The notes under the pieces: generated by a model | Told to the model about the DNA's origin: nothing | The model's database searches: none | Seen by the model: the letters and a program-made list of their open reading frames with translations, nothing else | Shown here: one piece after another, positions 1-13,199 of the stretch | How the letters are laid out: the number at the start of each line of letters is the position of its first letter | Numbering within the stretch: position 1 is the stretch's first letter | Made by a program: the position numbers and the translations under genes | Assembly: GCF_002021565.1 (NCBI RefSeq) | Contig: NZ_MSZX01000002.1 | Coordinates: forward strand, 334,554-366,553 | Length of the DNA stretch: 32,000 bases | Origin: Paenibacillus selenitireducens | GTDB lineage: Bacteria > Bacillota > Bacilli > Paenibacillales > Paenibacillaceae | Reading direction: 5' to 3'

Positions 1-261
1 CAGCCCACTACCTCAACCGGTATTATCTGTGCTGATTCCATAGATTCATCTGATCACAGGTGATGAAATCCTGCGAATGAGTGAGTATATGTGAGATAAA
101 CCCTTAAAAACGAGGGAAGGGACACGTTAGCTCAATAATCAACTATAACGCGGCTGCCGGTACAAATCGGTAGCCGCGTTATGCTTACTGGCAGTATAGT
201 TCGATAACTCCAGGGATAAAAATCCATAAATGTGAGACAACCGAGTGATTAAGAAAATAGC

Positions 262-301
262 GCCACCCTCGATCGGGGCCCCCGCCCCGGCCGAGGGTGG
301 C
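262..301. other. GC-rich nested hairpin (terminator-like or REP-like)
   Basis: GCCACCCTCG (262-271) pairs with CGAGGGTGGC (292-301). An inner CGGGGC (274-279) pairs with GCCCCG (284-289). There is no adjacent T-run, so function is unclear. Confidence 0.3.
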
Positions 302-451
302 TAACTGGAAATAAAACTTTTTATTACATATCGTTTCTCTCGATAGTGATAACTGTTTAAAAAAGATACTTCATTCCTTACTAACCCCCAGATAAGATAT
401 CGCTGTTTTAAATAACAAACAGGGAGCATAAGGATAAATTAGACTGTCAGG

Positions 452-667
452 GTGGGGGGGATGGCAGAGAAGGTGAATGAGTATGCGGACATTGATAAGC
501 GTGTATCATTGTTCATTGAAGGCAAACACGGAAAGATCGGCATCATTATCCCTGATCATGCACCAACTTATGAAGAGTGGAAAGAATTTAGAGAATCATT
601 AGTTGAAATTGCTTTGAACATCGTTAGGAATAAGCAAATATCATTAAAAAAGGAAACCGCTGAGTAA
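452..667 (+). CDS. hypothetical small protein (68-71 aa)
   Basis: ORF from the track. A purine-rich GGTGGGGGGG run lies just upstream of the ATG at 461; 452 is a GTG alternative. A strong intrinsic terminator follows. No family recognised. Confidence 0.4.
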   Translation: MGGMAEKVNEYADIDKRVSLFIEGKHGKIGIIIPDHAPTYEEWKEFRESLVEIALNIVRNKQISLKKETAE

Positions 668-687
668 GCTGGTTTCCTTTATTTTTT
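649..687 (+). terminator. intrinsic terminator after the small ORF
   Basis: AAAGGAAACC (649-658) pairs with GGTTTCCTTT (671-680) and is followed by TTTTTT (682-687). Confidence 0.6.
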
Positions 688-731
688 GAAGAACCTCAAT
701 AATTAACTTTTGGCACAATCAATATGAGTAA

Positions 732-812
732 GACAAAACAACCCGGGATATTGCGGGACAATTGTTTATCAGTGAGAAAACCGTGCGCAATCACATTTCG
801 AACGTGATGTAG
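732..812 (+). pseudogene. gerE: upstream segment of a split gerE-type LuxR-family HTH regulator gene (equivalent to GerE residues ~26-51); ends in a junction-created TAG
   Basis: Frame-3 translation reads DKTTRDIAGQLFISEKTVRNHISNVM then a stop. This matches the GerE HTH core (DKTTKEIASELFISEKTVRNHISNAM, B. subtilis sequence from memory). An in-frame TAA at 729-731 and the absence of a start codon mean the N-terminal ~25 codons are missing here. Confidence 0.8.
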
Positions 813-829
813 TATGAAACACACCCTTG
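776..829 (+). other. putative attL (host B arm + AA crossover + element P-prime arm)
   Basis: CATTTCG-AA-CGTGATG is centred on 801-802. The CGAACGT core (799-805) is identical to 14819-14825. The P-prime arm 803-826 is an imperfect inverted copy of 14797-14820. Confidence 0.6.
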
Positions 830-961
830 ATAATACAAAAATGTGTCTTAGGTCCCTTGTTTTGGAGGGGGTAATACTCTCGAAAACAGGGATAAATATC
901 CATCATACGACATTTTTTACTAAATATTGGAATTTTGAATATTCCATATTTAAGGATTGTC

Positions 962-970
962 TGCTACAAT
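962..970 (+). promoter_or_regulatory. possible extended -10 element (TGcTACAAT) for the pilus operon
   Basis: TGCTACAAT lies in the AT-rich 215-bp leader, ~55 bp upstream of the first pilus gene. No good -35 box at 17-bp spacing. Confidence 0.2.
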
Positions 971-1024
971 TGCGATGAAATTGGAGAATATTGTATGAAA
1001 TAGATATAGGAATGAGGGTGAACG

Positions 1025-2107
1025 ATGATTAAGAACGAACGGGGATTTGCTCTCCCGATGGTGCTGATCTTAGTAACAGCTTTATCCATTTTAGGAATGG
1101 CCCTTCTTGGAGTAAGCGTAAGCCAAGCTGCCCGAACCGTTCATCAGGAGAAAAAAGAGCAGGCATTCTACATAGCGAAGTCTGGTGCAGATGCTGTTGC
1201 GTCATATATTATTGATCACTATAATCCTGTCTCGGTGAGTACCACTGATGAAATAAAGAACCTCAATAAGGGTTACTTAGAGCAGGACATATCGCTAGGA
1301 ACGGGCACTTTTCGGGCAAATGTTACGAGAGGCCCCGACGATACAATTGTTATTTCTTCCAAGGGAACCTTGGGGAAAGTTACGAACCAGGCTTCGTTGA
1401 CGTTAGGAATGGATGAACCTGTGGTGACGATAGATCACGCGATTCTTGCATCTAAGGATATTGTAAATACAGGGGAGACCATCGTGAACAACGGAGGTAA
1501 TATTGCTGCCGGTGGGAGCATCAGCGGGGATGAAATCAAATTAGATGGGGGGAGTGCAGAATCAAATTATTCAGGAGCTTTTCCTCCTGCAATCCCTTTT
1601 CCAGATATAACAGGTTGGATCACTAAAACATTAGTGATTAATGCCTCAATAAGTGAATCGGCTTATTACGGAAGTTATTTGTCTTCAGACGCTGTATTTG
1701 AAATCAACATGACGAATAACAAGGACATGCATATCGTTTTCAAGAAGTTTGAACCAGCTACGACTGTTATTAATGTGACAGGTACCGGCAACGGGATCAT
1801 TCATCTTTATATGGATAATATCAAAGTAGCTGCATCGTTTACGATTAACAATTTATTGAGTAAAAAGGTAATTCTTCATGTCAAAGATTCAATCGATCTC
1901 AATGGGTCTTTTAATTTGCACGGTGTCCTTTTGTATGCTCCCACGGCGGAATACACTTCTACGAATGGGTCGATAGATCTAAAAGGTGCAATGGTTACTA
2001 AAAAAGTGACATTACAAGGTAGTAATGTGATCAACTACGACGCCTCCATCGCCAATCTCATCAAAGAATCTCGCAAATTTGAACGCAAGAACTGGAGAAA
2101 TTCCTAG
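1025..2107 (+). CDS. PilX/PilK-like large minor pilin (pilus tip or initiation subunit)
   Basis: N-terminus ERG/FALPMVLILVTALSILGMALLG is a prepilin-like hydrophobic helix without Glu at +5. The C-terminal pattern LHGVLLYAP...GSIDLKGAMV...NYD is typical of PilX/TadG-like proteins. RBS GAGGGTG precedes the start. Confidence 0.7.
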   Translation: MIKNERGFALPMVLILVTALSILGMALLGVSVSQAARTVHQEKKEQAFYIAKSGADAVASYIIDHYNPVSVSTTDEIKNLNKGYLEQDISLGTGTFRANVTRGPDDTIVISSKGTLGKVTNQASLTLGMDEPVVTIDHAILASKDIVNTGETIVNNGGNIAAGGSISGDEIKLDGGSAESNYSGAFPPAIPFPDITGWITKTLVINASISESAYYGSYLSSDAVFEINMTNNKDMHIVFKKFEPATTVINVTGTGNGIIHLYMDNIKVAASFTINNLLSKKVILHVKDSIDLNGSFNLHGVLLYAPTAEYTSTNGSIDLKGAMVTKKVTLQGSNVINYDASIANLIKESRKFERKNWRNS

Positions 2108-2125
2108 CCAATCGGAGTGAATGAC

Positions 2126-2581
2126 ATGAACGTACGAAAACAAGAAGAAGGATTTACGTTAATCGAAGTTTTGGCGTCTTTTGTCCTCCTTGTGATCATG
2201 GCAACGGTGTTAGTGAGCCTATTCTCCAACGGATTTCGCTCCATTGACAAATTCGGTGAGCGAAGCGAGCAAATGCATTTAGCTCGGCAAGAAGTGGAAC
2301 AAGCTACAGCCGGCACAGGAAGTAACCTGACTATCCATCAAATTAAAGGTACCGGCCAACTGAAAATTGAAGGCGAGACGGTTGAGAAACAGATTAGCGG
2401 AACTTCGGGCAGCAAAATGATATTGTTCATTCCAACACCAACGCCATGGAAGACAGGTGTATCGTACACCTTAGATGACCAGGTTCGATATAACGGGAAA
2501 AACTATCGATGTGTCATCCCGCATACCTCGAATGCCAGCAACAAGCCAACCAGTACAAGTTCTCCATGGGTTACCATGTAA
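2126..2581 (+). CDS. minor pilin (prepilin-type N-terminus) fused to a C-terminal CBM5/12-type chitin-binding module
   Basis: The leader ends in G/FTLIEVL, giving Glu at +5. The C-terminus WKTGVSYTLDDQVRYNGKNYRCVIPHTSNASNKPTSTSSPW fits the W..Y..G..V.YNGK.Y.C..PHTS...P...W pattern of ChtBD3/CBM5-12. The track start 2117 is a GTG; the ATG at 2126 has GGAG at good spacing. Confidence 0.8.
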   Translation: MNVRKQEEGFTLIEVLASFVLLVIMATVLVSLFSNGFRSIDKFGERSEQMHLARQEVEQATAGTGSNLTIHQIKGTGQLKIEGETVEKQISGTSGSKMILFIPTPTPWKTGVSYTLDDQVRYNGKNYRCVIPHTSNASNKPTSTSSPWVTM

Positions 2582-2644
2582 CTTGTATCCTATATATACT
2601 TTACTCTTCACGGAGAATTCGGATCTAAGAATAGGGGATGGTAT

Positions 2645-3202
2645 ATGCGATACGTGAAGCTTGACCAGAAAGGCCTTACGATCATTGAACTGTTAGCCGC
2701 CATCGTACTGCTTACGATTGTTTTGTCTCTAGCTTTTTCATCCTATGCGTTTGGGGTCAAGTCCTTTCAACGCGCGAATGAGCAGAGCGAGCTTCAAGAT
2801 CAGGTACGAATTGTCTCTCATGTTATTACCAGCAAATTGCGATATGCCAGCGAAGTCGAACTTTTATCATCCTGTCCTACGAACCTTACTGAAGGATTTA
2901 ACTACATCTGTATGAATTCGAACAAAAAAACCATTGATCTACACACCTACGATAAAACAACATCCGCTCACAAGCTTCAAAGCCTAAATACCGCAAGCTC
3001 CAAACATCCAATCACCTACGACATCGCGTTCCAAAAAACAAATGACCATCTCTTATCCTACAGCCTGAAGAGCATGGCTGATCAACAAAAATTTGACGTA
3101 CAATCTGAGATCTTGTTATTGAATTTGGATTTGAATGCAGTATCCATAAAAATAACGGGAAGCACACCTTATCAAGGCATTGCTTTCAAAGAAAACGCTT
3201 GA
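2645..3202 (+). CDS. minor pilin (prepilin-type N-terminal cleavage/methylation domain)
   Basis: QKG/LTIIELLAAIVLLTIVLSLAF has Glu at +5. RBS GGGGA is upstream. The gene sits between the other pilin genes and pilB. Confidence 0.75.
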   Translation: MRYVKLDQKGLTIIELLAAIVLLTIVLSLAFSSYAFGVKSFQRANEQSELQDQVRIVSHVITSKLRYASEVELLSSCPTNLTEGFNYICMNSNKKTIDLHTYDKTTSAHKLQSLNTASSKHPITYDIAFQKTNDHLLSYSLKSMADQQKFDVQSEILLLNLDLNAVSIKITGSTPYQGIAFKENA

Positions 3203-3227
3203 ACTTTTTGGACGATAAATCCAAGGG

Positions 3228-4904
3228 ATGAGAGGTGAAAACGTGAATAAACCTCGGAAACGCATGGGGGATCTACTCGTTGAGTCCGGACTCCTTACGA
3301 ATGAACAGCTGCAAATTGCCCTGAATGAAAAGAAACCAACACAAAAGCTAGGGGAAACGTTATTGCAGCTCGGGTTCATCACGGAGCAAAGACTTATTGA
3401 GGTTCTAGAGTTTCAATTAGGTATTCCTTATGTCAGCTTATTCAAATACCCGATAGATACCAAGCTGTTAAGCATCGTGTCCAAAGAAACCGCCGAACGT
3501 AACAAGCTAATCCCTCTGAAAAGAGAAAGCAATAAGCTATTTGTCGCCATGGCTGACCCAATGGATTTTTATGCGATTGATGATTTGCGGCTCTCGACGG
3601 GTTTTCAGATCGAAGTGTCCATTGCGACGAAGGAAGACATTCATAAAGCCATCAGCAAATATTACAGCCTAGTGGATAACATGGAAGACCTGTTAGGCGC
3701 AGACCTCAAGTTTAAAGAGAAGGATGAAGATACGGTTACCGATGAAGACTCTCCGGTCGTCAAATTGGTCAACCAAATGATTCTTGCAGCCTATCAGCAA
3801 AAAGCGAGTGATATTCACATCGATCCGCAAGAGTCAGATGTTGTGATTCGATATCGGGTTGACGGGATCCTGAGGACAGAACGGAAATTTGCGAAACAAA
3901 TGCTGAGCATGATCGTGGCAAGGATCAAAATTTTATCCAATCTGAACATTACCGAATTCAGAATTCCGCAAGACGGTCGGATCAAAATTAATCTGGATTC
4001 CAATGCGATAGATCTTCGGGTTTCCACACTGCCAACAGTCTATGGCGAAAAGGTCGTCATGCGAATTCTCGACATCGGAAGTTCAGCTATAGATTTGAAA
4101 AGAATGAATTTTCATCCCACGAATTATGAACGTTTTGTGCGCATGATCGAAAAGCCGACAGGCATTGTGCTGATTACCGGTCCTACGGGTTCTGGCAAAT
4201 CTTCTACACTCTATTCCGCTTTGGGACAATTAAATTCGCCGGATGTCAACATTATTACCGTGGAAGATCCGGTGGAGTATCGGCTGGAAGGGGTTAATCA
4301 GGTTCAAGTCAATGTGAGTACCGGGATGACATTCTCGAAGGGATTGCGTGCGATTTTGCGTCAGGATCCGAACATCGTTATGGTCGGTGAAATTCGGGAT
4401 ACAGAGACAGCGGAGATTGCAGTTCGTGCTTCGTTAACAGGGCACTTAGTCTTGAGCACGATCCACACGAATGACGCGATCAGCACGATTACGAGATTAA
4501 TAGACATGGGAATTGAGCCTTTTCTCGTAGCTGCCTCGTTGTCTGGCGTCGTATCACAGAGGCTTGTCCGGCGCATTTGTCAGGAGTGTAAGACGCTGCA
4601 GCTTCCTTCGCAGCGGGAGACTGAAATTTTCGAAAAGCGAGGATTACAGATTGAGGCTGTCGCGAGAGGAAAAGGCTGCGGCGCTTGCAATATGACAGGC
4701 TACAAAGGAAGGATCGCTATTCATGAATTATTGGTGATCGATGATGAAATTCGCCGAATGATCATGAACAATCGTTCCATGGAACAGATCAAGGAGATCG
4801 CGGTGATGAAAGGAACCATTTTTTTAATTGATGATGGCTTAATTAAAGTAAAAGAAGGCTATACAACCACAGAAGAAGTCCTGCGCGTAGCCATCAGTGA
4901 GTAA
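3228..4904 (+). CDS. pilB: type IV pilus assembly ATPase PilB (GspE family) with N-terminal MshEN-type domain
   Basis: Walker A GPTGSGKSS, the tetracysteine motif CQEC...CGAC, and GspE-type N-terminal domains are present. An alternative GTG start at 3243 has a better RBS. Confidence 0.93.
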   Translation: MRGENVNKPRKRMGDLLVESGLLTNEQLQIALNEKKPTQKLGETLLQLGFITEQRLIEVLEFQLGIPYVSLFKYPIDTKLLSIVSKETAERNKLIPLKRESNKLFVAMADPMDFYAIDDLRLSTGFQIEVSIATKEDIHKAISKYYSLVDNMEDLLGADLKFKEKDEDTVTDEDSPVVKLVNQMILAAYQQKASDIHIDPQESDVVIRYRVDGILRTERKFAKQMLSMIVARIKILSNLNITEFRIPQDGRIKINLDSNAIDLRVSTLPTVYGEKVVMRILDIGSSAIDLKRMNFHPTNYERFVRMIEKPTGIVLITGPTGSGKSSTLYSALGQLNSPDVNIITVEDPVEYRLEGVNQVQVNVSTGMTFSKGLRAILRQDPNIVMVGEIRDTETAEIAVRASLTGHLVLSTIHTNDAISTITRLIDMGIEPFLVAASLSGVVSQRLVRRICQECKTLQLPSQRETEIFEKRGLQIEAVARGKGCGACNMTGYKGRIAIHELLVIDDEIRRMIMNNRSMEQIKEIAVMKGTIFLIDDGLIKVKEGYTTTEEVLRVAISE

Positions 4905-5952
4905 TGGGAAGGGGAAGCTGGAGCAATTGGAGCAATTATTACGAATGGCTTTTGAACAAAAAGCATCGGACTTGCACCTTACGGTAGGTGTACCACCCAT
5001 GATCCGAATCAATGGGGATCTCAAGCAATATGGCGAAGATAATTTGAAGCCCGAAGACACGATCAAGATGGCGAAGAGCATTATGACTCGAGATCAATGG
5101 GAGGTTTTGCAGGAAAAGAGAGAGCTGGATTTTTCCTTTGGGATTAAGGATATGACTCGATTCCGTGTGAATGTGTACCATCAACGTTCTCAAATAGGTA
5201 TCGCGCTCCGCCTTATACCAACAACCATCCCGGCATTGGATACTTTGCATGTACCGGAAGTTTTGCGTCAGCTAAGCACCAAAGCGCAAGGATTGATTCT
5301 CGTCACAGGCCCGACGGGAAGCGGCAAATCAACGACGCTCGCTTCGATGATCGATGACATGAACAAGAGAATGCGCAAACATGTTATTACGTTAGAGGAT
5401 CCGATTGAGTACTTGCACCGCAACCAATATTCCGTCATTAATCAACGGGAAATCGGACATGATTCGCATAGCTTTTCGAACGGACTGCGGGCCGCGCTAC
5501 GGCAAGATCCCGATGTCATCCTGGTTGGAGAGTTACGAGATCTAGAGACGATATCCATTGCCATTACAGCGGCAGAGACGGGGCACTTGGTGCTTGGAAC
5601 CTTACATACGCCGAACGCGCCTGCAACGATTGATCGTATTTTGGACGTGTTTCCAGCCAATCAGCAAGGTCAAATTCGGATTCAACTTGCATCTGTTTTG
5701 ATCGCAATTCTATCACAACGGCTTTTCCCGACCATCGACAATCGAAGCAGGCGCGTGGCAACGGAATTGTTAATTAATAATCATGCTGTTGCCAACTTGA
5801 TTCGGAATGAGAAAGTCCACCAAATCTATAACTTCATGCAGACGGGGAAATCCTTTGGCATGCATACCCTGGAAATGTCCATGAACGATTTGATCGAGAA
5901 AAAGGTGATTACTCGAGAGGTCGCAGCACCATATTTTAGGGAGATGAGTTAA
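4897..5952 (+). CDS. pilT: type IV pilus retraction ATPase PilT
   Basis: 351 aa with ASDLHL near the N-terminus, Walker A GPTGSGKST, and LVGELRD / GHLVLGTLHT motifs. The GTG start overlaps the pilB stop by 8 nt. Confidence 0.92.
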   Translation: MSNGKGKLEQLEQLLRMAFEQKASDLHLTVGVPPMIRINGDLKQYGEDNLKPEDTIKMAKSIMTRDQWEVLQEKRELDFSFGIKDMTRFRVNVYHQRSQIGIALRLIPTTIPALDTLHVPEVLRQLSTKAQGLILVTGPTGSGKSTTLASMIDDMNKRMRKHVITLEDPIEYLHRNQYSVINQREIGHDSHSFSNGLRAALRQDPDVILVGELRDLETISIAITAAETGHLVLGTLHTPNAPATIDRILDVFPANQQGQIRIQLASVLIAILSQRLFPTIDNRSRRVATELLINNHAVANLIRNEKVHQIYNFMQTGKSFGMHTLEMSMNDLIEKKVITREVAAPYFREMS

Positions 5953-7160
5953 TGGCTCAGTTTGCATATATCGGTCGTGATCGTGCCGGCAAGTCGCGTA
6001 AAGGGAAAGTTTCTGGTTCAACCCGGAAAGAAGTTGTCATGGAACTTCGCGAGAAAGGGATTGCCATTTCCGAGATCGTCGAGCTGGAAGCAAATGTGTT
6101 CAATACGGATATTACCATTGGCAACCCAGTTAAGACGCAAGATTTCGTGATTTACCTCCGTCAGTTTGCAACGTTAATCGTGGCCGGCGTGTCGGTTGCG
6201 GAAGCTACGAAGATATTGGCGGAACAGACCGCAAGTAAAGCTTTGCGAAAGGCACTAATCAATGTAGAGGAAGAATTACGATCTGGTAAACCGTTGTCAC
6301 TTGCTGCAGCCCTTCATCCAAAAATCTTTCCACCCATGTTCATTAATTTGGTACAAGCCGGGGAAGCCACGGGGAACTTGGATGAGACGCTGGAACGATT
6401 AGCTTCTTTTTTTGAGAAACAGCACTATACCGTCCAAAAGGTGAAGTCCGCACTAACTTATCCAATTGCCATCACGATTGTCGCCATTGGGGTCGTTATC
6501 TTCCTGCTTACCAAAATCGTGCCCACGTTTGCCTCGATGTTTATGCAATTCGATGCAGAATTACCGTGGATTACGAAGACCGTCTTGGCGATCAGTGACT
6601 GGATGCAGCGTTTTTGGTGGCTCATTATCTTGCTGATTGTAGGGATCGTGGTTGGCATCACAGTGGCGATGAGAAATCCATCCAGTAAATATTATCTTGA
6701 TCATGCCATTCTCAAAATCCCGATCTTTGGGAAGTTAGTGCAGAAATCCGTCATTGCCAGATTTACAAGAACATTAAGCTCGTTGTTTAAAAGCTCGGTT
6801 CCGATTCTGGATGCGCTAAGTATCGTAGACAAAGTCGTCATGAATGAAGTCATGAGTAGGGTGTTGAAGGAGTCTAGGGTCTCGCTCCAAGGAGGGAAAT
6901 CGCTGTCTGCTCCAATGAAGCAGCATTGGATATTTCCGCCGCTCGTAACACAGATGATCGCCATTGGGGAACAATCTGGTTCTCTCGATTTCATGTTGGA
7001 AAAGGTCGCGGATTTCTATGAGAAAGAAGTCGATGCGACGGCGGATGCGCTGAAAGGCTTAATCGAGCCGATCATGATCATCATGCTGGCAGGTATTGTT
7101 GGATTTATTGTGTTGTCAATTATCGTGCCGATGTTCGATATTTTCAACCATGTCAAATAG
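5952..7160 (+). CDS. pilC: type IV pilus platform protein PilC (GspF family)
   Basis: 402 aa polytopic protein with the duplicated GspF-type architecture. The ATG overlaps the pilT stop (TAATG). Confidence 0.92.
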   Translation: MAQFAYIGRDRAGKSRKGKVSGSTRKEVVMELREKGIAISEIVELEANVFNTDITIGNPVKTQDFVIYLRQFATLIVAGVSVAEATKILAEQTASKALRKALINVEEELRSGKPLSLAAALHPKIFPPMFINLVQAGEATGNLDETLERLASFFEKQHYTVQKVKSALTYPIAITIVAIGVVIFLLTKIVPTFASMFMQFDAELPWITKTVLAISDWMQRFWWLIILLIVGIVVGITVAMRNPSSKYYLDHAILKIPIFGKLVQKSVIARFTRTLSSLFKSSVPILDALSIVDKVVMNEVMSRVLKESRVSLQGGKSLSAPMKQHWIFPPLVTQMIAIGEQSGSLDFMLEKVADFYEKEVDATADALKGLIEPIMIIMLAGIVGFIVLSIIVPMFDIFNHVK

Positions 7161-7211
7161 GTTATAGTGGCAACATTATAATAGATTACTAATTTTATAG
7201 GAGGAATAAGT

Positions 7212-7745
7212 ATGTTACAAATGGCAATGAAAAGGGTCAAAAATGAGAAAGGGTTAACGCTGATTGAGTTACTGGCAGTGGTTGTTATTTTGGGGATCGT
7301 CGCGGCTATTGCGATACCTGCGATTGGGGGATTGATTGACAGAACGAAAAAAGACGCACATGTTGCGAATGCAATTCAAATGATAGCAGCTGCAAAAATG
7401 GCTGTTGTGGGTGATGAGAGAGCAAGACCTACCGCTACAACAATTACAAAATATATATCTTTAGACTGGTTAGTTGTAAATGGATATCTTGATCCAGTGA
7501 AGGATCCCGATGGTACAACGAATGGTTACTCAGTTGGTACTGCTGCTGCCACACCTCCACCTAGTACTGTAGCTACAGCAGGTTCCCATGTTTTAGCAAC
7601 ATTAACCACATCAACTGGTGCAATTTCTTATAGCGTATTTCTAAAAAATGATACACGCGGAGTACGAGAAACTGCAACTAGTACAGGTACTGCAGCTACT
7701 GACTACGTGAAAGAATCAACCGTGAACCGTGACGCAGTTAAATAG
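7212..7745 (+). CDS. pilA: major type IV pilin PilA
   Basis: NEKG/LTLIELLAVVVILGIVAAIAIPA is a canonical class III signal with Glu at +5. A strong AGGAGG RBS precedes the start. The C-terminal half is rich in Thr/Ser/Ala. A hairpin follows the gene. Confidence 0.88.
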   Translation: MLQMAMKRVKNEKGLTLIELLAVVVILGIVAAIAIPAIGGLIDRTKKDAHVANAIQMIAAAKMAVVGDERARPTATTITKYISLDWLVVNGYLDPVKDPDGTTNGYSVGTAAATPPPSTVATAGSHVLATLTTSTGAISYSVFLKNDTRGVRETATSTGTAATDYVKESTVNRDAVK

Positions 7746-7810
7746 GTCAACTCCATAGTCACTTGTGGCCTAGAAGTTAATCTTGTTACAATCAGACATC
7801 TATAACTAAT

Positions 7811-7833
7811 CACGCCCTCGTTAGGGGGGCGTG
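7811..7833 (+). terminator. hairpin after pilA (probable leaky terminator or attenuator)
   Basis: CACGCCC (7811-7817) pairs with GGGCGTG (7827-7833), followed only by a weak TT-rich tract. It lies between the major pilin gene and pilD. Confidence 0.4.
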
Positions 7834-7862
7834 TTATCCATTGTCCTAACTGGAGGCAAACC

Positions 7863-8615
7863 ATGACCGCGTTTTATTCCATTTATGCTGCGATTGCAGG
7901 TTTATTGTTAGGCTCCTTTTATAATGTGGTAGGTTTACGGGTTCCCTTAGGCGAATCGATCATTCGACCACGCTCGCATTGCACGACATGCCAACGTACA
8001 CTGGGAGCCAGCGAGCTGGTCCCTTTTTTTTCTTATCTTTTCTTAAGGGGTGCCTGCCGGGGATGCGGTACGAAAATATCATTCCTTTATCCGCTAACCG
8101 AAATGGGGACTGCGCTGTTATTTGTTAGCATGCCATGGTTCATCGGCTGGTCGCCGGAATTATTCGTCGCATGGGCGTTAATCTCCCTGTTGATTATCAT
8201 TTGTATTTCAGATCTTCGGTATATGTTAATTCCGAACAAAGTGTTGCTGGTCTTTTCGGTTATTTTTCTCGGATTGCGTCTCCTCCTTCCAGTAGATCCT
8301 TGGTGGGATATGTTCCTGGGTGCCGGTGTTGGCTTTGCGTTGCTGTTACTTATCGCGATCGTGAGCAAGAACGGCATGGGCGGAGGAGATATTAAATTGT
8401 TTGCCGTCCTCGGCATGGTCTTAGGATGGAAAGGTGTATTACTTGCTTTCCTGTTATCTTGCTGCTATGGCACACTCATCGGCATCGTTGGAATGCTTCT
8501 CGGGAAAGTACGAAGAGGGAAGCCAATGCCGTTCGGACCTGCCATTGCATTAGGCACATTAACTGCATATTTGTGGGGAGAAGCACTTCTTACATGGTAT
8601 TACCAGTTTCTATGA
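7863..8615 (+). CDS. pilD: prepilin peptidase / N-methyltransferase PilD (A24 family)
   Basis: N-terminal Cys pairs CTTC...CRGC are present. The catalytic Asp motifs are ISDLRYMLIPN and GGGDIKLF. The protein is polytopic. Confidence 0.92.
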   Translation: MTAFYSIYAAIAGLLLGSFYNVVGLRVPLGESIIRPRSHCTTCQRTLGASELVPFFSYLFLRGACRGCGTKISFLYPLTEMGTALLFVSMPWFIGWSPELFVAWALISLLIIICISDLRYMLIPNKVLLVFSVIFLGLRLLLPVDPWWDMFLGAGVGFALLLLIAIVSKNGMGGGDIKLFAVLGMVLGWKGVLLAFLLSCCYGTLIGIVGMLLGKVRRGKPMPFGPAIALGTLTAYLWGEALLTWYYQFL

Positions 8616-8633
8616 TGTAGTGGAGGAGAAAAG

Positions 8634-9698
8634 ATGAGAGCAAGTCGGACAACGCGTGTAAATCAAGAACATCATACCCATGTAGCAAACATTGTGAACA
8701 GAAAGCAGCCGAAAAAGAAAATGGTCAGCTTGATGATCAAAGACCATGTCATTCGATATATGGATGCCAAGCGACCGAATTTGCGGGGAGCAACCGCCTT
8801 CGGGGAATATGATTTGCCTTCAGGCATCATTCATGAAGGCAGGATTGCAGAGCCGGATCGGTTGCGTACCATTCTGAAGGATTGCATTCAAAAGTGGAAA
8901 CTCAAAGACCGAGAAGTGCAGTTTATTGTCCCGGATTCTGTCGTGATCGTACGGAAGATTGAGATTTCGGCGGAGATCGAGGAGGAGGAGATCAAGGGAC
9001 ATCTATATTTGGAATTAGGAACGAACATCCATCTTCCCTTTGAGGATCCGATATTTGATATTGATTTTCTAGGACGCTCCGATGAGAAACAAGAAATTCT
9101 ATTATTTGCCGCACCGGAGCAGATTGTTAACGAATACGCACAGATCTTGACCAGCGCAGGTCTGAAGCCTGTTGCAGCCGATGTGTCTTCGCTGGCCATC
9201 TATCGTTTATTTTATAAAGTGAATGATGAATTGGAATTGGACATTGTCTCGGAAGCACCGGTTCTATCCGTTCAATTCGACCTGCAGACGGTAACGGTAG
9301 GCGTCATTCATAAGCATAAATTAATGCTTCTTCGTCAATTTCGGATGAATCTATCCATCGATAACTGGGAACGGCAAACGAACAAAAGAGATGTCAATAC
9401 ACCGGTGTGGATCGGCGATGAGAGCTACTTAACCTATGAAATTAATGTAATGATCGGAGAGATTCAGCGCGTCATCAGCTTCTATCGTTCCGTTACGAAT
9501 CATCATGAAGATGAGATTGAAACGATAATATTAACGGGAGATTATCCGTATTTAGAGGATATCGCAACCAATCTGCATCAACATTTTGAAAAAATGCCTT
9601 TTACGTTCTCAAAAGAATTGTTCGAGACGCAATCGAAGGAACTCGTTCCACCGAAATATTATTTGCCGCTAGGATTAGCCCTAAAGGGGGGCGTCTAA
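8634..9698 (+). CDS. pilM: type IV pilus assembly protein PilM (actin-like ATPase fold)
   Basis: 354 aa, GGAGGAG RBS, position directly upstream of pilN with an overlapping stop/start, and PilM-like sequence organisation. Confidence 0.8.
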   Translation: MRASRTTRVNQEHHTHVANIVNRKQPKKKMVSLMIKDHVIRYMDAKRPNLRGATAFGEYDLPSGIIHEGRIAEPDRLRTILKDCIQKWKLKDREVQFIVPDSVVIVRKIEISAEIEEEEIKGHLYLELGTNIHLPFEDPIFDIDFLGRSDEKQEILLFAAPEQIVNEYAQILTSAGLKPVAADVSSLAIYRLFYKVNDELELDIVSEAPVLSVQFDLQTVTVGVIHKHKLMLLRQFRMNLSIDNWERQTNKRDVNTPVWIGDESYLTYEINVMIGEIQRVISFYRSVTNHHEDEIETIILTGDYPYLEDIATNLHQHFEKMPFTFSKELFETQSKELVPPKYYLPLGLALKGGV

Positions 9699-10264
9699 TG
9701 CTGAGTGAGATTAACTTGCTCCCCCAACGGGAGCAGCGAAGCATTTTTTTTGTCATTGGGATCACGGTCATATTGGCTTTCGGTTTGCTTAGCACTGGCG
9801 TTCTCTTCTTCCAATATCAGTCCCTGAAGACGGATCAAGATCGACAACAGGCGGAAGCGAAGACGGTCGAGAAAATGATTGAAATCGAATCGCAAAAACT
9901 CCTGCAAGGCGCGAGTACCTCGGAAGTAGGTCAATATGAACAGATTGTTCACACGATCGAGCAACTGCCGGTGGATACGATCCGAATTCTTGACCAATTA
10001 TCTGCGGCCTTGCCTCAGAGCGGCTTCTTTACTTCCTATTCTTATCAGGATCCTGGAACGGTGTCGGTGATTGCGGATTTCGGGACATCAGAGGATGCTG
10101 CGCAATATCTTTATCATTTAACATATGCGGATTGGGTACGCAAAATCGAGATCAGCTCTCTAGTAAAACAAGATAGTGGGATAAAGGTCCTTTACAAAGC
10201 GACGTATACGCTCGAATTGAAACGGGATGTATTCGCTGAAGTGAAAGGAGCGGGTACAGAATGA
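9698..10264 (+). CDS. pilN: type IV pilus assembly protein PilN
   Basis: The N-terminal EINLLPQRE signature is followed by a single TM helix. The gene is translationally coupled to pilM and pilO. Confidence 0.85.
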   Translation: MLSEINLLPQREQRSIFFVIGITVILAFGLLSTGVLFFQYQSLKTDQDRQQAEAKTVEKMIEIESQKLLQGASTSEVGQYEQIVHTIEQLPVDTIRILDQLSAALPQSGFFTSYSYQDPGTVSVIADFGTSEDAAQYLYHLTYADWVRKIEISSLVKQDSGIKVLYKATYTLELKRDVFAEVKGAGTE

Positions 10265-11037
10265 ACGCGAAACAGGTAAGAATATTAACCTTGGCTGTCT
10301 CGTGTATTCTCATCCTTTCCGGGTTGCTATTGTTTTATTTCAATCGTATCCAGCCTACACAAAGCCAAGTGAAGACGTTGAAAAGTAAAATTGCAACAGA
10401 TAAAAAGGTGCTGGAAAAGCTGCAATCGCAGGCCCATGAACAGCAGCAGAGTAAGGCGGATCTTCTGGAGTTGCAGCGTAAGGTTCCTGTCGAAGCCTTT
10501 GTGGACCAGATGATTCTCGATCTACGGAAGGATGAACAACAATCCAAGAGTAAGATTCGTAATATGGGGTTGAGCTATACGAATACATCATTAAATGAAT
10601 TGAGTCAAGTGATAGGTATTCCTAACCTACAATCACCGAACGCGACAGTTTCGCAGCCTGTCAATACAGCAGCATCAAATGAAGGAACTTCAACGGTGCC
10701 AGCTGATACGAGTGCCAATCCAGCACCATCAAGCGAAAATCCCGCAGTGCAGCTGGAAGTTTACAAAATAGGCCTCACCTTAAGCGTTGAATCACCGACC
10801 TATAACGATTTCAAAACCTTTGTACTTGGGATCCAACAACTAGACCGCGTTATTCAAATTGATGCCATATCATTCACGGATACCGCCAACACCTATAACC
10901 TCACGGTATCCGCATTCTATGCGCCGCAATTCCAAGGATTTGAGGAACGGCTTCCACGGGCCTCGTTCCCGGCACCAAGCGGCAAGACTGTACCGATTCA
11001 AGTGACGAATCCCGTAACAGAACCTGCAGGAACTTAA
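10261..11037 (+). CDS. pilO: type IV pilus assembly protein PilO-like
   Basis: An N-terminal TM helix and coiled-coil segment precede a conserved C-terminal domain. There is an internal Ser/Thr/Pro/Asn-rich insert. The start overlaps the pilN stop (ATGA). Confidence 0.7.
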   Translation: MNAKQVRILTLAVSCILILSGLLLFYFNRIQPTQSQVKTLKSKIATDKKVLEKLQSQAHEQQQSKADLLELQRKVPVEAFVDQMILDLRKDEQQSKSKIRNMGLSYTNTSLNELSQVIGIPNLQSPNATVSQPVNTAASNEGTSTVPADTSANPAPSSENPAVQLEVYKIGLTLSVESPTYNDFKTFVLGIQQLDRVIQIDAISFTDTANTYNLTVSAFYAPQFQGFEERLPRASFPAPSGKTVPIQVTNPVTEPAGT

Positions 11038-11056
11038 GAAAGAGGGTGAACGTACG

Positions 11057-12499
11057 ATGTCCATTCGTGTTCTCATTGTTGATGATACGAAATTTCTACG
11101 CCTGATGTTAACGGATATATTAACAAAATCCGGGTATGAGGTTGTAGGTCAAGCAGAGAACGGTGTTATTGCCGTCGACAAGTTCAGAGAATTGCGGCCC
11201 GATCTGGTGATTATGGATATTACGATGCCAGAGATGGACGGAATTACGGCGTTAAAGGAGATTAGGGCCATCGAGCCGCAGTCTGTCATCTTAATCTGCT
11301 CTGCGATGAGTCAGCGAGATCTCATTTCCAAGGCATTAAAGGCAGGCGCGAACAATTATGTGATGAAGCCGTTCGAACCTGAGCGCGTCAAGGAGATCAT
11401 TCTTGAAGTTATGCCACTAATGGAGAACAACAAAAAAGAAAAAGCATCCATAAAAGCTCCGATTGAGCCGGAACCTGTGCAAGAATCCGTGGTGACGGAA
11501 GACCAGGCAACTAAATTGCGCAAATCGTTTGCTGAACAGACCAGTGAACAGTATATCTTATCTGAAGCAGCCGTAGCGCCGATAGAAGACTCGTTTCCAG
11601 AACCAGAACTAGAATCACCAATAGAACCTCGCCTTGAAGTGAAGGAAGCACTTGTCTCGGAAACGCCCGACTTGGTGGAACAGGTAGAACCCATGTTGGA
11701 AGCAAGAATATCTTCCGAAGCGGAAGAAGAGTTCGGCACATTACTCGAAGGCATTGAAAATCCAACCCCAACAGGGATCACTGCGGATCATGAACGAAGC
11801 AACCCTGGCGTATTGGAAGAAATAACAGCTGCATCTGCGGAAGCTGCAGTTTCGGTTACCGCTGTCAACGAGATAAATATCTCCGCGGAATCCCTCCCGG
11901 GTGATTTTACGCATCTGTCCAAACGTCTGGAGGCTGAGCTCAAGCATACCCCTGAGGAGCCTATCTCTAATACATCAGAAGAGCAGCAAGCTAGCGCAGA
12001 GGAAGTATCTTTAGACGAGAACAACGAAGAACAGACTGGAACGAATCATCTTGATGAGAATGAACTTGATGAACAAGAAGGATCACCTTCCCGTTCATCG
12101 AATCCTGCCGTCTGGTTCGAACAATTGATTTTTTCCAATTCCAATAAAACGGGGGATGCTGAGATGGCAAGAAATCCGCAAATGATAGATGCTGAGGTCA
12201 GACAGGAACATCATGTGGCAACAATCGATCAAGGTAGCAGTTCAAGCATGCTGCCAGAACTGAAACGCAAAAATATGCGGAACTTCGCAAGCAGTATCAT
12301 GTGCAAATTTTCAGAACAGGTCGATGGGAAGGAAATGGACTATTTCGTTGTCTACAACGAATTTGACAAGTCGATTCGGATCGATATGATCTCTCCCGAT
12401 GAGAAGCGCAACAGCATTCAATTATCGCTCGACGGGTTCACTTTTATTATGGAATGGCTCGAACAGAAGGGCGTACGCATCGATAAAGTCTTAGATTAA
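11057..12499 (+). CDS. CheY-like response regulator receiver fused to a ~230-aa acidic low-complexity linker and an uncharacterised C-terminal domain
   Basis: Residues 1-120 align closely with Bacillus CheY as I remember it (ILIVDD, PDLV.MDITMPEMDGITALKEI, CSAM, VMKPF). The rest is Glu/Pro/Ser-rich, followed by a ~100-aa globular-looking tail. RBS AGAGGGTG precedes the start. Confidence 0.85.
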   Translation: MSIRVLIVDDTKFLRLMLTDILTKSGYEVVGQAENGVIAVDKFRELRPDLVIMDITMPEMDGITALKEIRAIEPQSVILICSAMSQRDLISKALKAGANNYVMKPFEPERVKEIILEVMPLMENNKKEKASIKAPIEPEPVQESVVTEDQATKLRKSFAEQTSEQYILSEAAVAPIEDSFPEPELESPIEPRLEVKEALVSETPDLVEQVEPMLEARISSEAEEEFGTLLEGIENPTPTGITADHERSNPGVLEEITAASAEAAVSVTAVNEINISAESLPGDFTHLSKRLEAELKHTPEEPISNTSEEQQASAEEVSLDENNEEQTGTNHLDENELDEQEGSPSRSSNPAVWFEQLIFSNSNKTGDAEMARNPQMIDAEVRQEHHVATIDQGSSSSMLPELKRKNMRNFASSIMCKFSEQVDGKEMDYFVVYNEFDKSIRIDMISPDEKRNSIQLSLDGFTFIMEWLEQKGVRIDKVLD

Positions 12500-12529
12500 T
12501 AGAAGCCATCAAAGTTAAGGAGGACAATC

Positions 12530-12817
12530 ATGAAGAACAAGCAAATCAGTCAATTAACTTTGTGCGATTCTTATAACCATTCTCAGATCATACCGATCGC
12601 CAATGCGAGGCAAATCTTTGACAAAATCGTTAAGGTCTACGTCAGCCGTGAAGATATCTATAATCACTCGAAGACGCCGAGGGAGTTCCAAGCCTATCAA
12701 AACATTGATAGCGAAACCTTGCTTATTGTCGTGAGTATCCGCAGTGATTGGTGGACGCCATGGAAAGGCATGGTGACGGAAGACGTTTATTTTTATCGAG
12801 AACCTTTTGCGCAATGA
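12530..12817 (+). CDS. hypothetical protein (95 aa); candidate accessory or directionality factor
   Basis: A strong AAGGAGG RBS lies 7 nt upstream of the ATG. No family recognised. The gene sits between the pilus/regulator block and the recombinase gene. Confidence 0.5.
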   Translation: MKNKQISQLTLCDSYNHSQIIPIANARQIFDKIVKVYVSREDIYNHSKTPREFQAYQNIDSETLLIVVSIRSDWWTPWKGMVTEDVYFYREPFAQ

Positions 12818-12908
12818 GGTACAGAAGTGAATGAAGAAGCGGGCAACTCCAATCAGGGAGAGGCTCGTTTCTTTTTTTTGTTCTATAAAGGCGCGGAAAG
12901 GAGCGGTT

Positions 12909-13061
12909 ATGGTACAAGACGGCAGGTTCATAGACATAATTATCACAAGCGGAGAGGAGCGGACCGAATGCCTAAAGACGCCAAACCATCGTATCGAATA
13001 CATGTACATCCCGGAAAGGAGAATAGAGAACACATCATGGATGAGCTTGCCAAGCAAGTGA
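12909..13061 (+). CDS. possible small ORF (~50 aa)
   Basis: This is an internal ATG of the 12831 ORF, preceded by AAAGGAG at 6-nt spacing. No family recognised. The competing overlapping frames look compositionally implausible. Confidence 0.2.
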   Translation: MVQDGRFIDIIITSGEERTECLKTPNHRIEYMYIPERRIENTSWMSLPSK

Positions 13062-13199
13062 TTCAGCGCAATGTAGTGGATTTTCACATGCAAAACGAAA
13101 GGGTAAAAAAAATCCCCCTACCAGGACGAGCAGGCTGAACCAATAAAGGAAGCAGACATTTTCTAATGATGAAAATGAATCGTCATGGGGGAGGCGATA

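What the first reader, a model, noticed from the sequence alone, without database searches (positions are those of the whole stretch)
2447..2578. A minor pilin is fused to a CBM5/12-type chitin-binding module
The 151-154-aa protein has a canonical prepilin leader and Glu+5 helix (G/FTLIEVL). It ends in PWKTGVSYTLDDQVRYNGKNYRCVIPHTSNASNKPTSTSSPW. This reproduces the aromatic and Gly pattern of chitinase chitin-binding domains such as B. circulans ChiA1 (AWQVNTAYTAGQLVTYNGKTYKCLQPHTSLAGWEPSNVPALW, from memory). A lectin-like module on a pilin that sits beside a PilX/PilK-like tip subunit suggests a pilus that presents a polysaccharide adhesin, for attachment to or twitching on chitin or cellulose-like surfaces. 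Chitin-linked T4P are known in Vibrio, but there the adhesion is not provided by a CBM-pilin fusion of this kind. I do not know of a Gram-positive example.
Basis: partly seen in the sequence, partly recalled or inferred. Interest (0 to 1): 0.72.

Follow-up and report, generated by a model that had tools for sequence, protein, structure and literature searches.

The report
Pilus subunit carrying a chitin-binding-type module
A soil Paenibacillus encodes a small type IV pilus subunit fused to a carbohydrate-binding module of the chitinase type. It is a real but already catalogued kind of "modular pilin", and its sugar target is uncertain because the key chitin-binding tryptophan is missing.

Summary
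ORF 2126-2581 (+) of this Paenibacillus selenitireducens window encodes a 151-aa prepilin (MNVRKQEEG|FTLIEVL). A Pro/Thr linker joins it to a CBM5/12 module (Pfam E=2e-12; predicted fold matches solved CBM12/CBM5 domains).

It is the middle of three minor-pilin genes at the head of a complete retractile type IV pilus operon (PilB/T/C, major pilin, PilD, PilMNO). The fusion is conserved, in the same gene order and under purifying selection, in eight named Paenibacillus genomes. It has decayed in the P. ihumii/P. lentus lineage.

The surface Trp687 that dominates chitin binding in ChiA1 is an invariant Asn here, and the CBM5 aromatic pair is also absent. A pilus-displayed glycan adhesin is the best reading, but chitin specificity is unproven.

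Lectin-bearing modular pilins are already known in Gram-positives (Streptococcus sanguinis PilC). This exact architecture appears once in the supplementary catalogue of Raynaud et al. 2021. It is a new member of a known kind.

In passing, I found at least 147 Opitutaceae PilX-like proteins carrying several CBM5/12 modules.

The parts
1025..2107 (+). PilX/GspK-like minor pilin (360 aa), first of three minor-pilin genes
   Evidence: Pfam PilX_N 26.9 bits and DUF7305 33.6 bits, both above cut-off. There is a weak GspK hit. The gene is conserved upstream of the CBM-pilin in all related loci.
2126..2152 (+). Class III signal peptide leader MNVRKQEEG, ending in the Gly before the predicted PilD cleavage site
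   Evidence: Read from the sequence. Pfam N_methyl hit. G9-F10-T11-L12 and E14 are conserved in the family.
2153..2431 (+). Short pilin module (F10-I102): long alpha-1 helix plus a three-stranded sheet
   Evidence: AlphaFold2 run with the family alignment gives helix 12-59 and strands 64-71, 78-89 and 97-103, mean pLDDT 85. There are weak ComGE/ComGF/GspI-type hits below cut-off.
2432..2446 (+). Pro/Thr linker PTPTP
   Evidence: Family consensus is FIPTPPxW. The CBM-less orthologues end at or just after FIP.
2447..2581 (+). CBM5/12-fold module W108-M151 plus stop codon. Asn139 (2540-2542) sits where ChiA1 has Trp687.
   Evidence: Pfam CBM_5_12 E=2.1e-12. Alignment to 1ED7. Foldseek matches to CBM12/CBM5 domains at rmsd 1.4-2.1 A. 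pLDDT is above 90.
2645..3202 (+). Third minor pilin (185 aa), possibly GspJ-like
   Evidence: Pfam N_methyl 24.9 bits. Weak T2SS protein J hit, E=1.6e-4, far below cut-off. Its position is conserved.
3228..4904 (+). PilB extension ATPase with MshEN domain
   Evidence: Pfam T2SSE E=3.5e-136 and MshEN E=9e-23.
4897..5952 (+). PilT-type retraction ATPase
   Evidence: Pfam T2SSE E=7.7e-50, 351 aa.
5952..7160 (+). PilC platform protein
   Evidence: Pfam T2SSF E=1.1e-62, two copies.
7212..7745 (+). Probable major pilin (177 aa)
   Evidence: Pfam N_methyl 31.4 bits. The best weak NCBIfam hits are to GspG and PilA.
7863..8615 (+). PilD prepilin peptidase
   Evidence: Pfam A24_N_bact E=8e-30 and Peptidase_A24 E=1.4e-23.
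8634..11037 (+). PilM, PilN and PilO assembly proteins (8634-9698, 9698-10264, 10261-11037)
   Evidence: Pfam PilM_2 E=8e-22. The PilN hit (E=3e-4) is weak and the PilO hit (E=9e-6) is modest.
11057..12499 (+). Response regulator that closes the cluster in every related genome
   Evidence: Pfam Response_reg E=1.2e-30. Same position in P. pini and P. aquistagni.

Best explanation
The gene encodes a modular minor type IV pilin. The steps below are marked as shown or inferred.

1. **Processing (inferred).** PilD, encoded 5 kb downstream, is expected to remove the 9-residue leader.
2. **Assembly (inferred from gene order and size).** The short pilin module (alpha-1 helix plus a three-stranded sheet) probably joins the PilX-like and third minor pilins of the same operon. 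Together they would form the priming or tip complex of a retractile pilus built by PilB, PilT, PilC and PilMNO.
3. **Display (architecture shown, location inferred).** A 5-residue Pro/Thr linker holds a 44-residue CBM5/12-fold module. It would sit on the outside of that complex, at about one copy per pilus.
4. **Function (inferred).** The module most likely binds a glycan polymer, and PilT-driven retraction would then pull the cell onto it.
5. **Ligand (open).** By family precedent the ligand would be a GlcNAc-type polymer such as chitin. However, the canonical stacking tryptophan is replaced by an invariant Asn. Binding is therefore probably weaker or of a different specificity than in chitinase CBMs.
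For: **Domain calls above curated cut-offs.** N_methyl and CBM_5_12 both pass.

**Structure.** AlphaFold2 with 15 family sequences gives mean pLDDT 85, a pilin fold, and a CBM with pLDDT above 90. Foldseek places the CBM on:
- Vibrio deacetylase CBM12: rmsd 1.6 A, 33-39% identity.
- S. griseus ChiC ChBD: target TM-score (TMt) 0.71.
- 1ED7: TMt 0.77.

**Operon.** It is complete and includes PilD and PilT.

**Conserved gene order.** The order PilX-like, CBM-pilin, minor pilin, PilB and onward holds in P. pini, P. aquistagni and strain FJAT-18019. The same CBM-pilin follows the PilX-like gene in P. solani, P. faecalis, sp. MSJ-34 and sp. 1001270B.

**Selection.** dN/dS is about 0.2 in both modules. 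These are short segments, so the estimate is rough.

**Conserved non-core residues in the CBM.** T115, L116, D118, P132, H133, N139 and P141 are conserved, which argues for a constrained surface.

**Precedent.** Modular pilins display adhesive modules. S. sanguinis PilC is a lectin, and it is modelled in a tip complex with the GspI-like PilA and PilB (PMC8179133, PMC9934059).

**Weak link to chitin.** P. pini has a GH18 chitinase 1.2 kb upstream of the PilX-like gene, with two small genes in between.
Against: - Trp687 of ChiA1, the surface residue with the major role in ligand binding (PMC3701571), aligns with Asn139.
- No other conserved aromatic lies outside the core positions.
- The CBM5 aromatic pair is absent.
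- A chitinase neighbour is seen only in P. pini among the loci fetched.
- The module has been lost in the P. ihumii/P. lentus lineage while the rest of the locus visible in the fetched stretches (PilX-like gene, truncated pilin, start of the next minor pilin) is kept. It is therefore not essential for the pilus.
- Assignment of the pilin module to the GspI/ComGE type rests on hits below cut-off and one weak fold match.
- Tip location is inferred, not shown.
- There is no expression or binding data.
Confidence: 0.55

Rival explanations
1. The module is a true chitin adhesin. The pilus tip binds crystalline chitin (fungal hyphae, arthropod debris) and supports attachment and twitching on it, working with secreted chitinases.
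For: - Family precedent: the solved CBM5/CBM12 modules compared in PMC8449059 all bind chitin.
- The closest solved relatives sit in chitin-active enzymes.
- P-H-T-S and Pro141, which flank the binding Trp in ChiA1, are kept.
- A GH18 chitinase with its own CBM5/12 lies 1.2 kb upstream of the PilX-like gene of the P. pini cluster.
Against: - Trp687 is replaced by an invariant Asn, and Gln679 by a variable residue.
- The chitinase CBM in the same P. pini genome keeps the Trp (LLGWEP). The pilin module is therefore a diverged type, not a recent copy.
- The chitinase linkage is not conserved.
Confidence: 0.25
2. The module binds a different polymer: the organism's own exopolysaccharide or cell-wall glycan, or the surface of other microbes. 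The pilus would then serve cell-cell cohesion or social surface motility rather than substrate capture.
For: - The aromatic platform typical of crystalline-surface binders is missing, while a polar residue is strictly conserved.
- In Myxococcus, type IV pili bind exopolysaccharide and also chitin or chitosan, and this drives retraction (PMC12691611).
- CBM5/12-like modules without the Trp are common in non-enzyme repeat proteins, including collagen-repeat proteins.
- The species carrying the gene come from soil, lake water and faeces (record names), which gives no obvious common chitin niche.
Against: No ligand is known for any Asn-type CBM5/12. Nothing in the window points to an exopolysaccharide locus linked to the pilus genes.
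Confidence: 0.2
3. The module has no lectin function. It would be a small stable cap that shapes or stabilises the minor-pilin complex through protein-protein contacts.
For: - The ligand-binding determinants are absent.
- The pTM of 0.55 leaves the orientation between the two domains undefined.
- The module can be lost while the visible part of the locus is kept.
Against: - Purifying selection acts on the module.
- The flexible Pro/Thr linker is typical of displayed modules.
- CBM5/12 modules were independently added in multiple copies to PilX-like proteins in Opitutaceae. That fits avidity for an external ligand better than a structural cap.
Confidence: 0.1

Closest known systems
Modular type IV pilins as defined by Raynaud et al. 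2021 (PMC8179133). Their Dataset S1 lists the architecture IPR012902-IPR003610 once.
   Same: An N-terminal prepilin motif and a short pilin module are joined by a short linker to a domain not specific to pilus biology. The gene lies in a type IV pilus locus. The very domain pair is in their catalogue.
   Different: The CBM5/12 case is not among the 15 most frequent architectures discussed in the main text. No paper in the searched library holds both 'pilin' and 'CBM_5_12'. Here it is shown to be a conserved Paenibacillus family with defined gene order, selection and a loss event.
Streptococcus sanguinis PilC, a modular minor pilin with a ConA-like lectin module (PMC9934059)
   Same: A Gram-positive type IV pilus and a minor pilin carrying a carbohydrate-binding module. 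PilC partners with a GspI-like minor pilin and is modelled at the pilus tip.
   Different: PilC is 52.8 kDa with an Ig-like module plus a ConA-type module, and it binds sialylated host glycans. Here a 44-residue CBM5/12 fold sits on a pilin of about 95 residues, in environmental bacteria, and the ligand is unknown.
Chitin-binding domain of Bacillus circulans chitinase A1 (CBM12, PDB 1ED7)
   Same: 39% identity over 44 aligned columns. The same core aromatics and Cys, and the same predicted fold.
   Different: Trp687 is replaced by Asn139 and Gln679 by Ile131. The module is attached to a pilin, not an enzyme.
Ruminococcus albus / R. flavefaciens type IV pilins (CbpC, GP25, Pil3) involved in cellulose adhesion (PMC3672088)
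   Same: A Gram-positive type IV pilus used to attach to an insoluble polysaccharide.
   Different: There the binding is attributed to an abundant ordinary pilin (probably the major subunit) with no recognisable CBM. Here a dedicated module sits on a minor pilin.
GspI-GspJ-GspK / HIJK tip complex of type IV filaments (Korotkov and Hol 2008, as cited in PMC9934059)
   Same: Three adjacent minor-pilin genes: a large PilX/GspK-like one, a very small one, and a mid-sized one with a weak GspJ hit.
   Different: Sequence similarity to GspI and GspJ is below every curated cut-off. No H-type subunit was identified. The complex is inferred, not modelled.

Membership tests
Type IV pilin (class III signal peptide, PF07963/IPR012902) | Short hydrophilic leader ending in Gly, then a hydrophobic stretch of about 20 residues with Glu at +5 | tested here: met
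   The sequence reads MNVRKQEEG|FTLIEVLASFVLLVIMATVLV. N_methyl scores 24.9 bits against a cut-off of 21.2. The motif is conserved in the family.
Type IV pilin (class III signal peptide, PF07963/IPR012902) | Long N-terminal alpha helix packed on a beta sheet | tested here: met
   The AlphaFold2 model has helix 12-59 and three strands, with pLDDT 80-91 in this part. This is a prediction only.
Type IV pilin (class III signal peptide, PF07963/IPR012902) | Dedicated prepilin peptidase and assembly machinery encoded with it | tested here: met
   PilD, PilB, PilT, PilC and PilM/N/O lie in the same gene string.
Type IV pilin (class III signal peptide, PF07963/IPR012902) | Cleavage, N-methylation and incorporation into filaments | not testable with these tools
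   This needs mass spectrometry of sheared pili or immunogold labelling.
CBM5/12 (PF02839) | Profile score above Pfam's gathering threshold | tested here: met
   47.3 bits against 26.2, E=2.1e-12, covering 42 of 44 profile positions.
CBM5/12 (PF02839) | Core residues of the fold (ChiA1 W656, Y662, V668, Y670, Y675, C677, W696) | tested here: met
   They align with W108, Y114, V120, Y122, Y127, C129 and W148. The core list comes from PMC3701571.
CBM5/12 (PF02839) | Small beta-sandwich ('ski-boot') fold | tested here: met
   The predicted module superposes on 8YH4/4NY2 CBM12 (rmsd 1.6 A), 2D49 (rmsd 1.4 A, TMt 0.71) and 1ED7 (rmsd 2.1 A, TMt 0.77). Foldseek E-values are weak because the domain is tiny.
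CBM5/12 (PF02839) | Exposed aromatic residue(s) that stack on the sugar: Trp687 in the CBM12 of ChiA1, or the Y-W/W-W pair in CBM5 | tested here: not met
   Trp687 aligns with Asn139, which is present in every member that carries the module. The CBM5 pair position reads Ile-Pro. The roles of these residues are from PMC3701571, PMC5461050 and PMC8449059.
CBM5/12 (PF02839) | Binding to insoluble chitin or cellulose | not testable with these tools
   This needs pull-down or isotherm experiments.
Modular pilin (Raynaud et al. 2021) | Pilin module plus an extra, independently known domain joined by a short linker | tested here: met
   Two Pfam domains, the PTPTP linker, and a two-domain model. CBM-less orthologues end at the linker.
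Modular pilin (Raynaud et al. 2021) | The extra module directly mediates a pilus function such as adhesion | not testable with these tools
   No functional data exist.
GspI/ComGE-type subunit of the minor-pilin tip complex | Sequence or structural similarity to GspI or ComGE | tested here: inconclusive
   - ComGE scores 31.3 bits (cut-off 49) and GspI 17.4 bits (cut-off 44).
- A profile of the pilin module finds only alpha-1 helices in the PDB.
- There is one weak fold match to a 116-residue chain of the XcpGHIJK model, E=0.13.
GspI/ComGE-type subunit of the minor-pilin tip complex | Encoded with K-like and J-like partners | tested here: inconclusive
   The PilX_N/DUF7305 neighbour is above cut-off. 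The J-like assignment of the third pilin rests on E=1.6e-4, far below cut-off.

The most novel reading that the evidence does not exclude
CBM5/12-fold modules that keep the fold's core but lack the canonical binding tryptophan could be an unrecognised class of ligand-binding heads for type IV filament tips. They would have been grafted independently onto different tip subunits in two phyla: the small GspI-sized pilin in Paenibacillus, and the PilX/GspK-like DUF7305 protein, in several copies, in Opitutaceae. Their target would be a polymer other than crystalline chitin.
Probability: 0.25. Interest if true: 0.6.

Novelty: new member of a known kind. Interest (0 to 1): 0.4.

Why it matters
**What it would show.** It would give a concrete, genetically simple case of a soil Gram-positive arming its pilus tip with a module borrowed from polysaccharide-degrading enzymes. 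That would extend the modular-pilin idea from host-adapted streptococci to environmental bacteria.

**What makes it testable.** Natural CBM-plus and CBM-minus alleles exist in sister species. One residue (Asn139 versus Trp) is an obvious switch to test. The question of what the module binds, and whether it drives attachment, is therefore directly approachable.

**Wider relevance.** The large Opitutaceae family suggests the theme is broader than one genus.

**Limits.** The concept is not new and no function has been shown.

Tried and rejected
**Attempts that gave nothing usable**
- Single-sequence AlphaFold2 gave an unusable model (pLDDT 52). It was replaced by a run with a 15-sequence family alignment.
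- An exact look-up of the window protein's contig failed, so the DNA upstream of window position 1 could not be inspected.
- Sequence searches of the pilin module, the third minor pilin and the PilX-like profile against the PDB gave only alpha-1 helix matches or nothing. The I/J/K roles remain inferred.
- The promoter and terminator scan of 1-13200 did not exceed shuffles.
- Literature searches for pilin plus CBM_5_12 and for DUF7305 found nothing.

**Ideas rejected or not tested**
- Rejected: a conserved chitinase next to the pilus operon. tblastn with the P. pini GH18 found it only in P. pini.
- Unlikely: a competence (ComG) pseudopilus. The ComGE/ComGF hits are below cut-off, and the operon has PilT, PilMNO and its own major pilin.
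- Not tested: I did not check the pil region for atypical base composition. The only hint of mobility is the adjacent recombinase.

Full report
**What is there**

The window comes from Paenibacillus selenitireducens: the predicted protein is 100% identical to NCBI BVG16_05770. ORF 2126-2581 (+) encodes 151 aa. An upstream GTG at 2117 would give 154 aa, but a GGAG lies 8 nt before the ATG, and the database protein and its orthologues start at the ATG.

The N-terminus is a textbook class III signal peptide, MNVRKQEEG|FTLIEVL. Pfam N_methyl scores 24.9 bits against a cut-off of 21.2. Residues 108-151, exactly the finding's coordinates 2447-2578, match Pfam CBM_5_12 at E=2.1e-12 (47.3 bits, cut-off 26.2). 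phmmer aligns this stretch without gaps to the ChiA1 chitin-binding domain 1ED7 (E=1.1e-6) and to the CBM12 modules of Vibrio chitin deacetylases.

**Structure**

A single-sequence AlphaFold2 run was useless (pLDDT 52). With 15 family sequences the model reached pLDDT 85. It has these parts:
- an alpha-1 helix (residues 12-59)
- three strands (64-71, 78-89, 97-103)
- a PTPTP linker
- a compact beta module with pLDDT above 90

The pTM of 0.55 means the relative orientation of the two modules is not defined.

Foldseek against the PDB places the C-terminal module on CBM12 of Vibrio deacetylases (rmsd 1.6 A over 46 columns), on S. griseus ChiC ChBD (target TM-score, TMt, 0.71) and on 1ED7 (TMt 0.77). 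The pilin part gives one weak match to a 116-residue chain of the XcpGHIJK pseudopilus model.

**Context**

The gene is second in a co-directional string:
- PilX_N/DUF7305 protein, 1025-2107
- the CBM-pilin
- a 185-aa minor pilin, 2645-3202
- PilB with an MshEN domain
- PilT
- PilC
- a 177-aa probable major pilin
- PilD
- PilM, PilN and PilO
- a response regulator

This is a complete retractile type IV pilus system. The three leading genes look like the K-, I- and J-type minor pilins that prime and cap type IV filaments. Only the K-like assignment is above a curated cut-off. The I and J assignments rest on size, gene order and weak hits.

**Distribution and evolution**

An exhaustive HMMER scan of 1.84 billion cluster representatives found only four full-length relatives and one CBM-less relative. 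All other hits matched the CBM alone. A profile search of 5.8 billion proteins found 13 clusters with the CBM, plus one close CBM-less relative (P0161) and one distant pilin. P0003 adds one more CBM-carrying cluster. All of the named ones are Paenibacillus.

Gene order is conserved in P. pini, P. aquistagni and strain FJAT-18019. Scanning one genome per species with the PilX-like neighbour retrieved eight Paenibacillus species. The downstream pilin:
- carries the CBM in P. pini, P. solani, P. faecalis, P. aquistagni, sp. MSJ-34 and sp. 1001270B
- ends at or just after the FIP motif in P. ihumii, P. lentus and one Logan assembly

On a neighbour-joining tree of the PilX-like proteins, the CBM-less loci form one clade that is sister to CBM-bearing MSJ-34 (midpoint rooting, no outgroup).

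In P. lentus and P. ihumii, the DNA right after the stop codon still reads ...TACATATTGAATGATC... This is the out-of-frame remnant of the YTLNDQV strand that opens the CBM. In P. lentus a 20-nt pattern around it is otherwise found, among 19 loci, only inside the CBM of P. solani and P. faecalis. The module was therefore ancestral in this group and later decayed in one lineage.

Where pairs are close enough to measure, dN/dS is about 0.2 for both modules. These are short segments, so the estimate is rough.

**Does it bind chitin?**

The residues shared with ChiA1 are W108, Y114, V120, Y122, Y127, C129 and W148. These correspond to the residues that form the hydrophobic core of the ChiA1 domain. 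The sixth conserved aromatic, Trp687, is the surface residue with the major role in ligand binding (PMC3701571; also PMC5461050).

In the 1ED7 alignment Trp687 faces Asn139. That Asn is present in all 14 members that carry the module. The position of Gln679, which I recall from Hara et al. 2013 as a second determinant, is variable. That paper was not in the library. The Y-W/W-W pair that defines CBM5 binding (PMC8449059) is absent. No other aromatic is conserved outside the core.

P132, H133 and P141, which flank the binding Trp in ChiA1, are kept. The GH18 chitinase of P. pini carries a canonical CBM with the Trp (LLGWEP), so the pilin module is a diverged type.

I also examined the CBM5/12 domains most similar to this one, which is a biased sample. 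At this position 65% have an aromatic residue and 10% have Asn.

In short, membership of the fold family is met, and the defining ligand-binding feature is tested and not met. Glycan binding remains the most economical function for a conserved, linker-displayed CBM fold on a pilus subunit. Chitin specificity is a minority bet.

The only genomic hint is the GH18 chitinase 1.2 kb upstream of the PilX-like gene in P. pini, with two small genes in between. It is absent from the other fetched loci.

**Comparison with what is known**

Modular pilins were defined by Raynaud et al. 2021. They counted more than 1,200 such proteins and 264 architectures (PMC8179133). Their Dataset S1 lists IPR012902-IPR003610 once.

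S. sanguinis PilC is a Gram-positive minor pilin with a lectin module. It binds glycans and is modelled at the tip together with a GspI-like partner (PMC9934059). Ruminococcus type IV pilins mediate cellulose adhesion (PMC3672088). Myxococcus pili bind exopolysaccharide and chitin-like polymers (PMC12691611). A type IV pilus operon in P. thiaminolyticus is a virulence factor on a mobile element (PMC9765702).

No paper in the searched library links a pilin to CBM_5_12. The finding is thus a new, uncharacterised member of a known kind.

**An unexpected extension**

One CBM hit, P0069, is a 734-aa protein with a PilX-like N-terminus, several CBM5/12 modules and a C-terminal DUF7305. Searching with it returned at least 147 clusters. 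Nearly all have the CBM_5_12 plus DUF7305 architecture, and the named ones are Opitutaceae or other Verrucomicrobia.

In Opitutus sp. GAS368 the gene follows a prepilin gene and precedes a gene with a weak PilO hit. Here too the Trp687 position is mostly non-aromatic, although the alignment of that loop is less reliable. DUF7305 appears in no paper of the library.

CBM5/12 modules on tip-type minor pilins therefore recur in a second phylum, on a different subunit. This favours an outward-facing binding role over a structural accident.

**Verdict**

- The fusion is real and conserved: confidence about 0.95.
- A pilus-displayed glycan adhesin whose ligand is unresolved: 0.55.
- A specific chitin adhesin: about 0.25.
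- Interest is moderate at 0.4. The concept and even the architecture are already catalogued, but the natural loss alleles, the Trp-to-Asn change and the Opitutaceae family make a tidy, testable system.

Noticed in passing
L019 8001-9791 (Opitutus sp. GAS368); proteins P0069 and P0163-P0280: A large family (at least 147 clusters at 90% identity) of Opitutaceae/Verrucomicrobia proteins combines a PilX-like N-terminus, several CBM5/12 modules and a C-terminal DUF7305. In GAS368 the gene follows a prepilin gene and precedes a gene with a weak PilO hit. A second DUF7305 gene without CBMs lies 5.5 kb downstream. No paper in the library mentions DUF7305.
   Followed up: partly
L010 5430-5460 and L007 5450-5480 (P. 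lentus, P. ihumii): The CBM-less pilin alleles are followed, just after their stop codon, by an out-of-frame remnant of the first CBM strand (YILNDQV). This shows the module was lost by decay rather than never acquired.
   Followed up: yes
window 724-812 (+): This is a remnant of a LuxR/GerE-type helix-turn-helix (…TTRDIAGQLFISEKTVRNHISNVM*) with an in-frame stop just upstream. P. aquistagni has an intact 83-aa GerE-family gene at the same place before its PilX-like gene (L003 8408-8659). A pilus regulator has probably been lost here.
   Followed up: partly
window 13185-14762 (+): A large serine recombinase (Resolvase, Recombinase and Zn-ribbon domains) lies just beyond the response regulator that closes the pil cluster. 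The type IV pilus operon of P. thiaminolyticus is reported to sit on a mobile element (PMC9765702), so this cluster may also be mobile.
   Followed up: no
L001 5880-7640 (P. pini): A GH18 chitinase with CBM5/12 and two fn3 domains lies 1.2 kb upstream of the PilX-like gene, with two small genes in between. Its CBM keeps the canonical Trp (LLGWEP). This neighbour was not seen in the other fetched species.
   Followed up: yes
window 11057-12499 (+), L001 19027-20451, L003 18836 onward: A response regulator with a long C-terminal region that has no Pfam match (474-685 aa) closes the pil cluster in every genome whose fetched locus reaches that far. Its output domain is unknown.
   Followed up: no
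window 21078-21674 (+): A 198-aa ORF has FIMAH and F5/8 type C (discoidin) domains. It looks like a fragment of a larger glycan-binding surface protein and lies next to a sugar ABC transporter and an AraC-type regulator on the opposite strand.
   Followed up: no
proteins P0006, P0098, P0132 (hits): The CBM5/12 domains most similar to the pilin module sit in very large multi-repeat proteins (up to 23 matched stretches per protein), some with collagen triple-helix repeats. Their architecture is reminiscent of fibre proteins and unlike enzymes.
   Followed up: no
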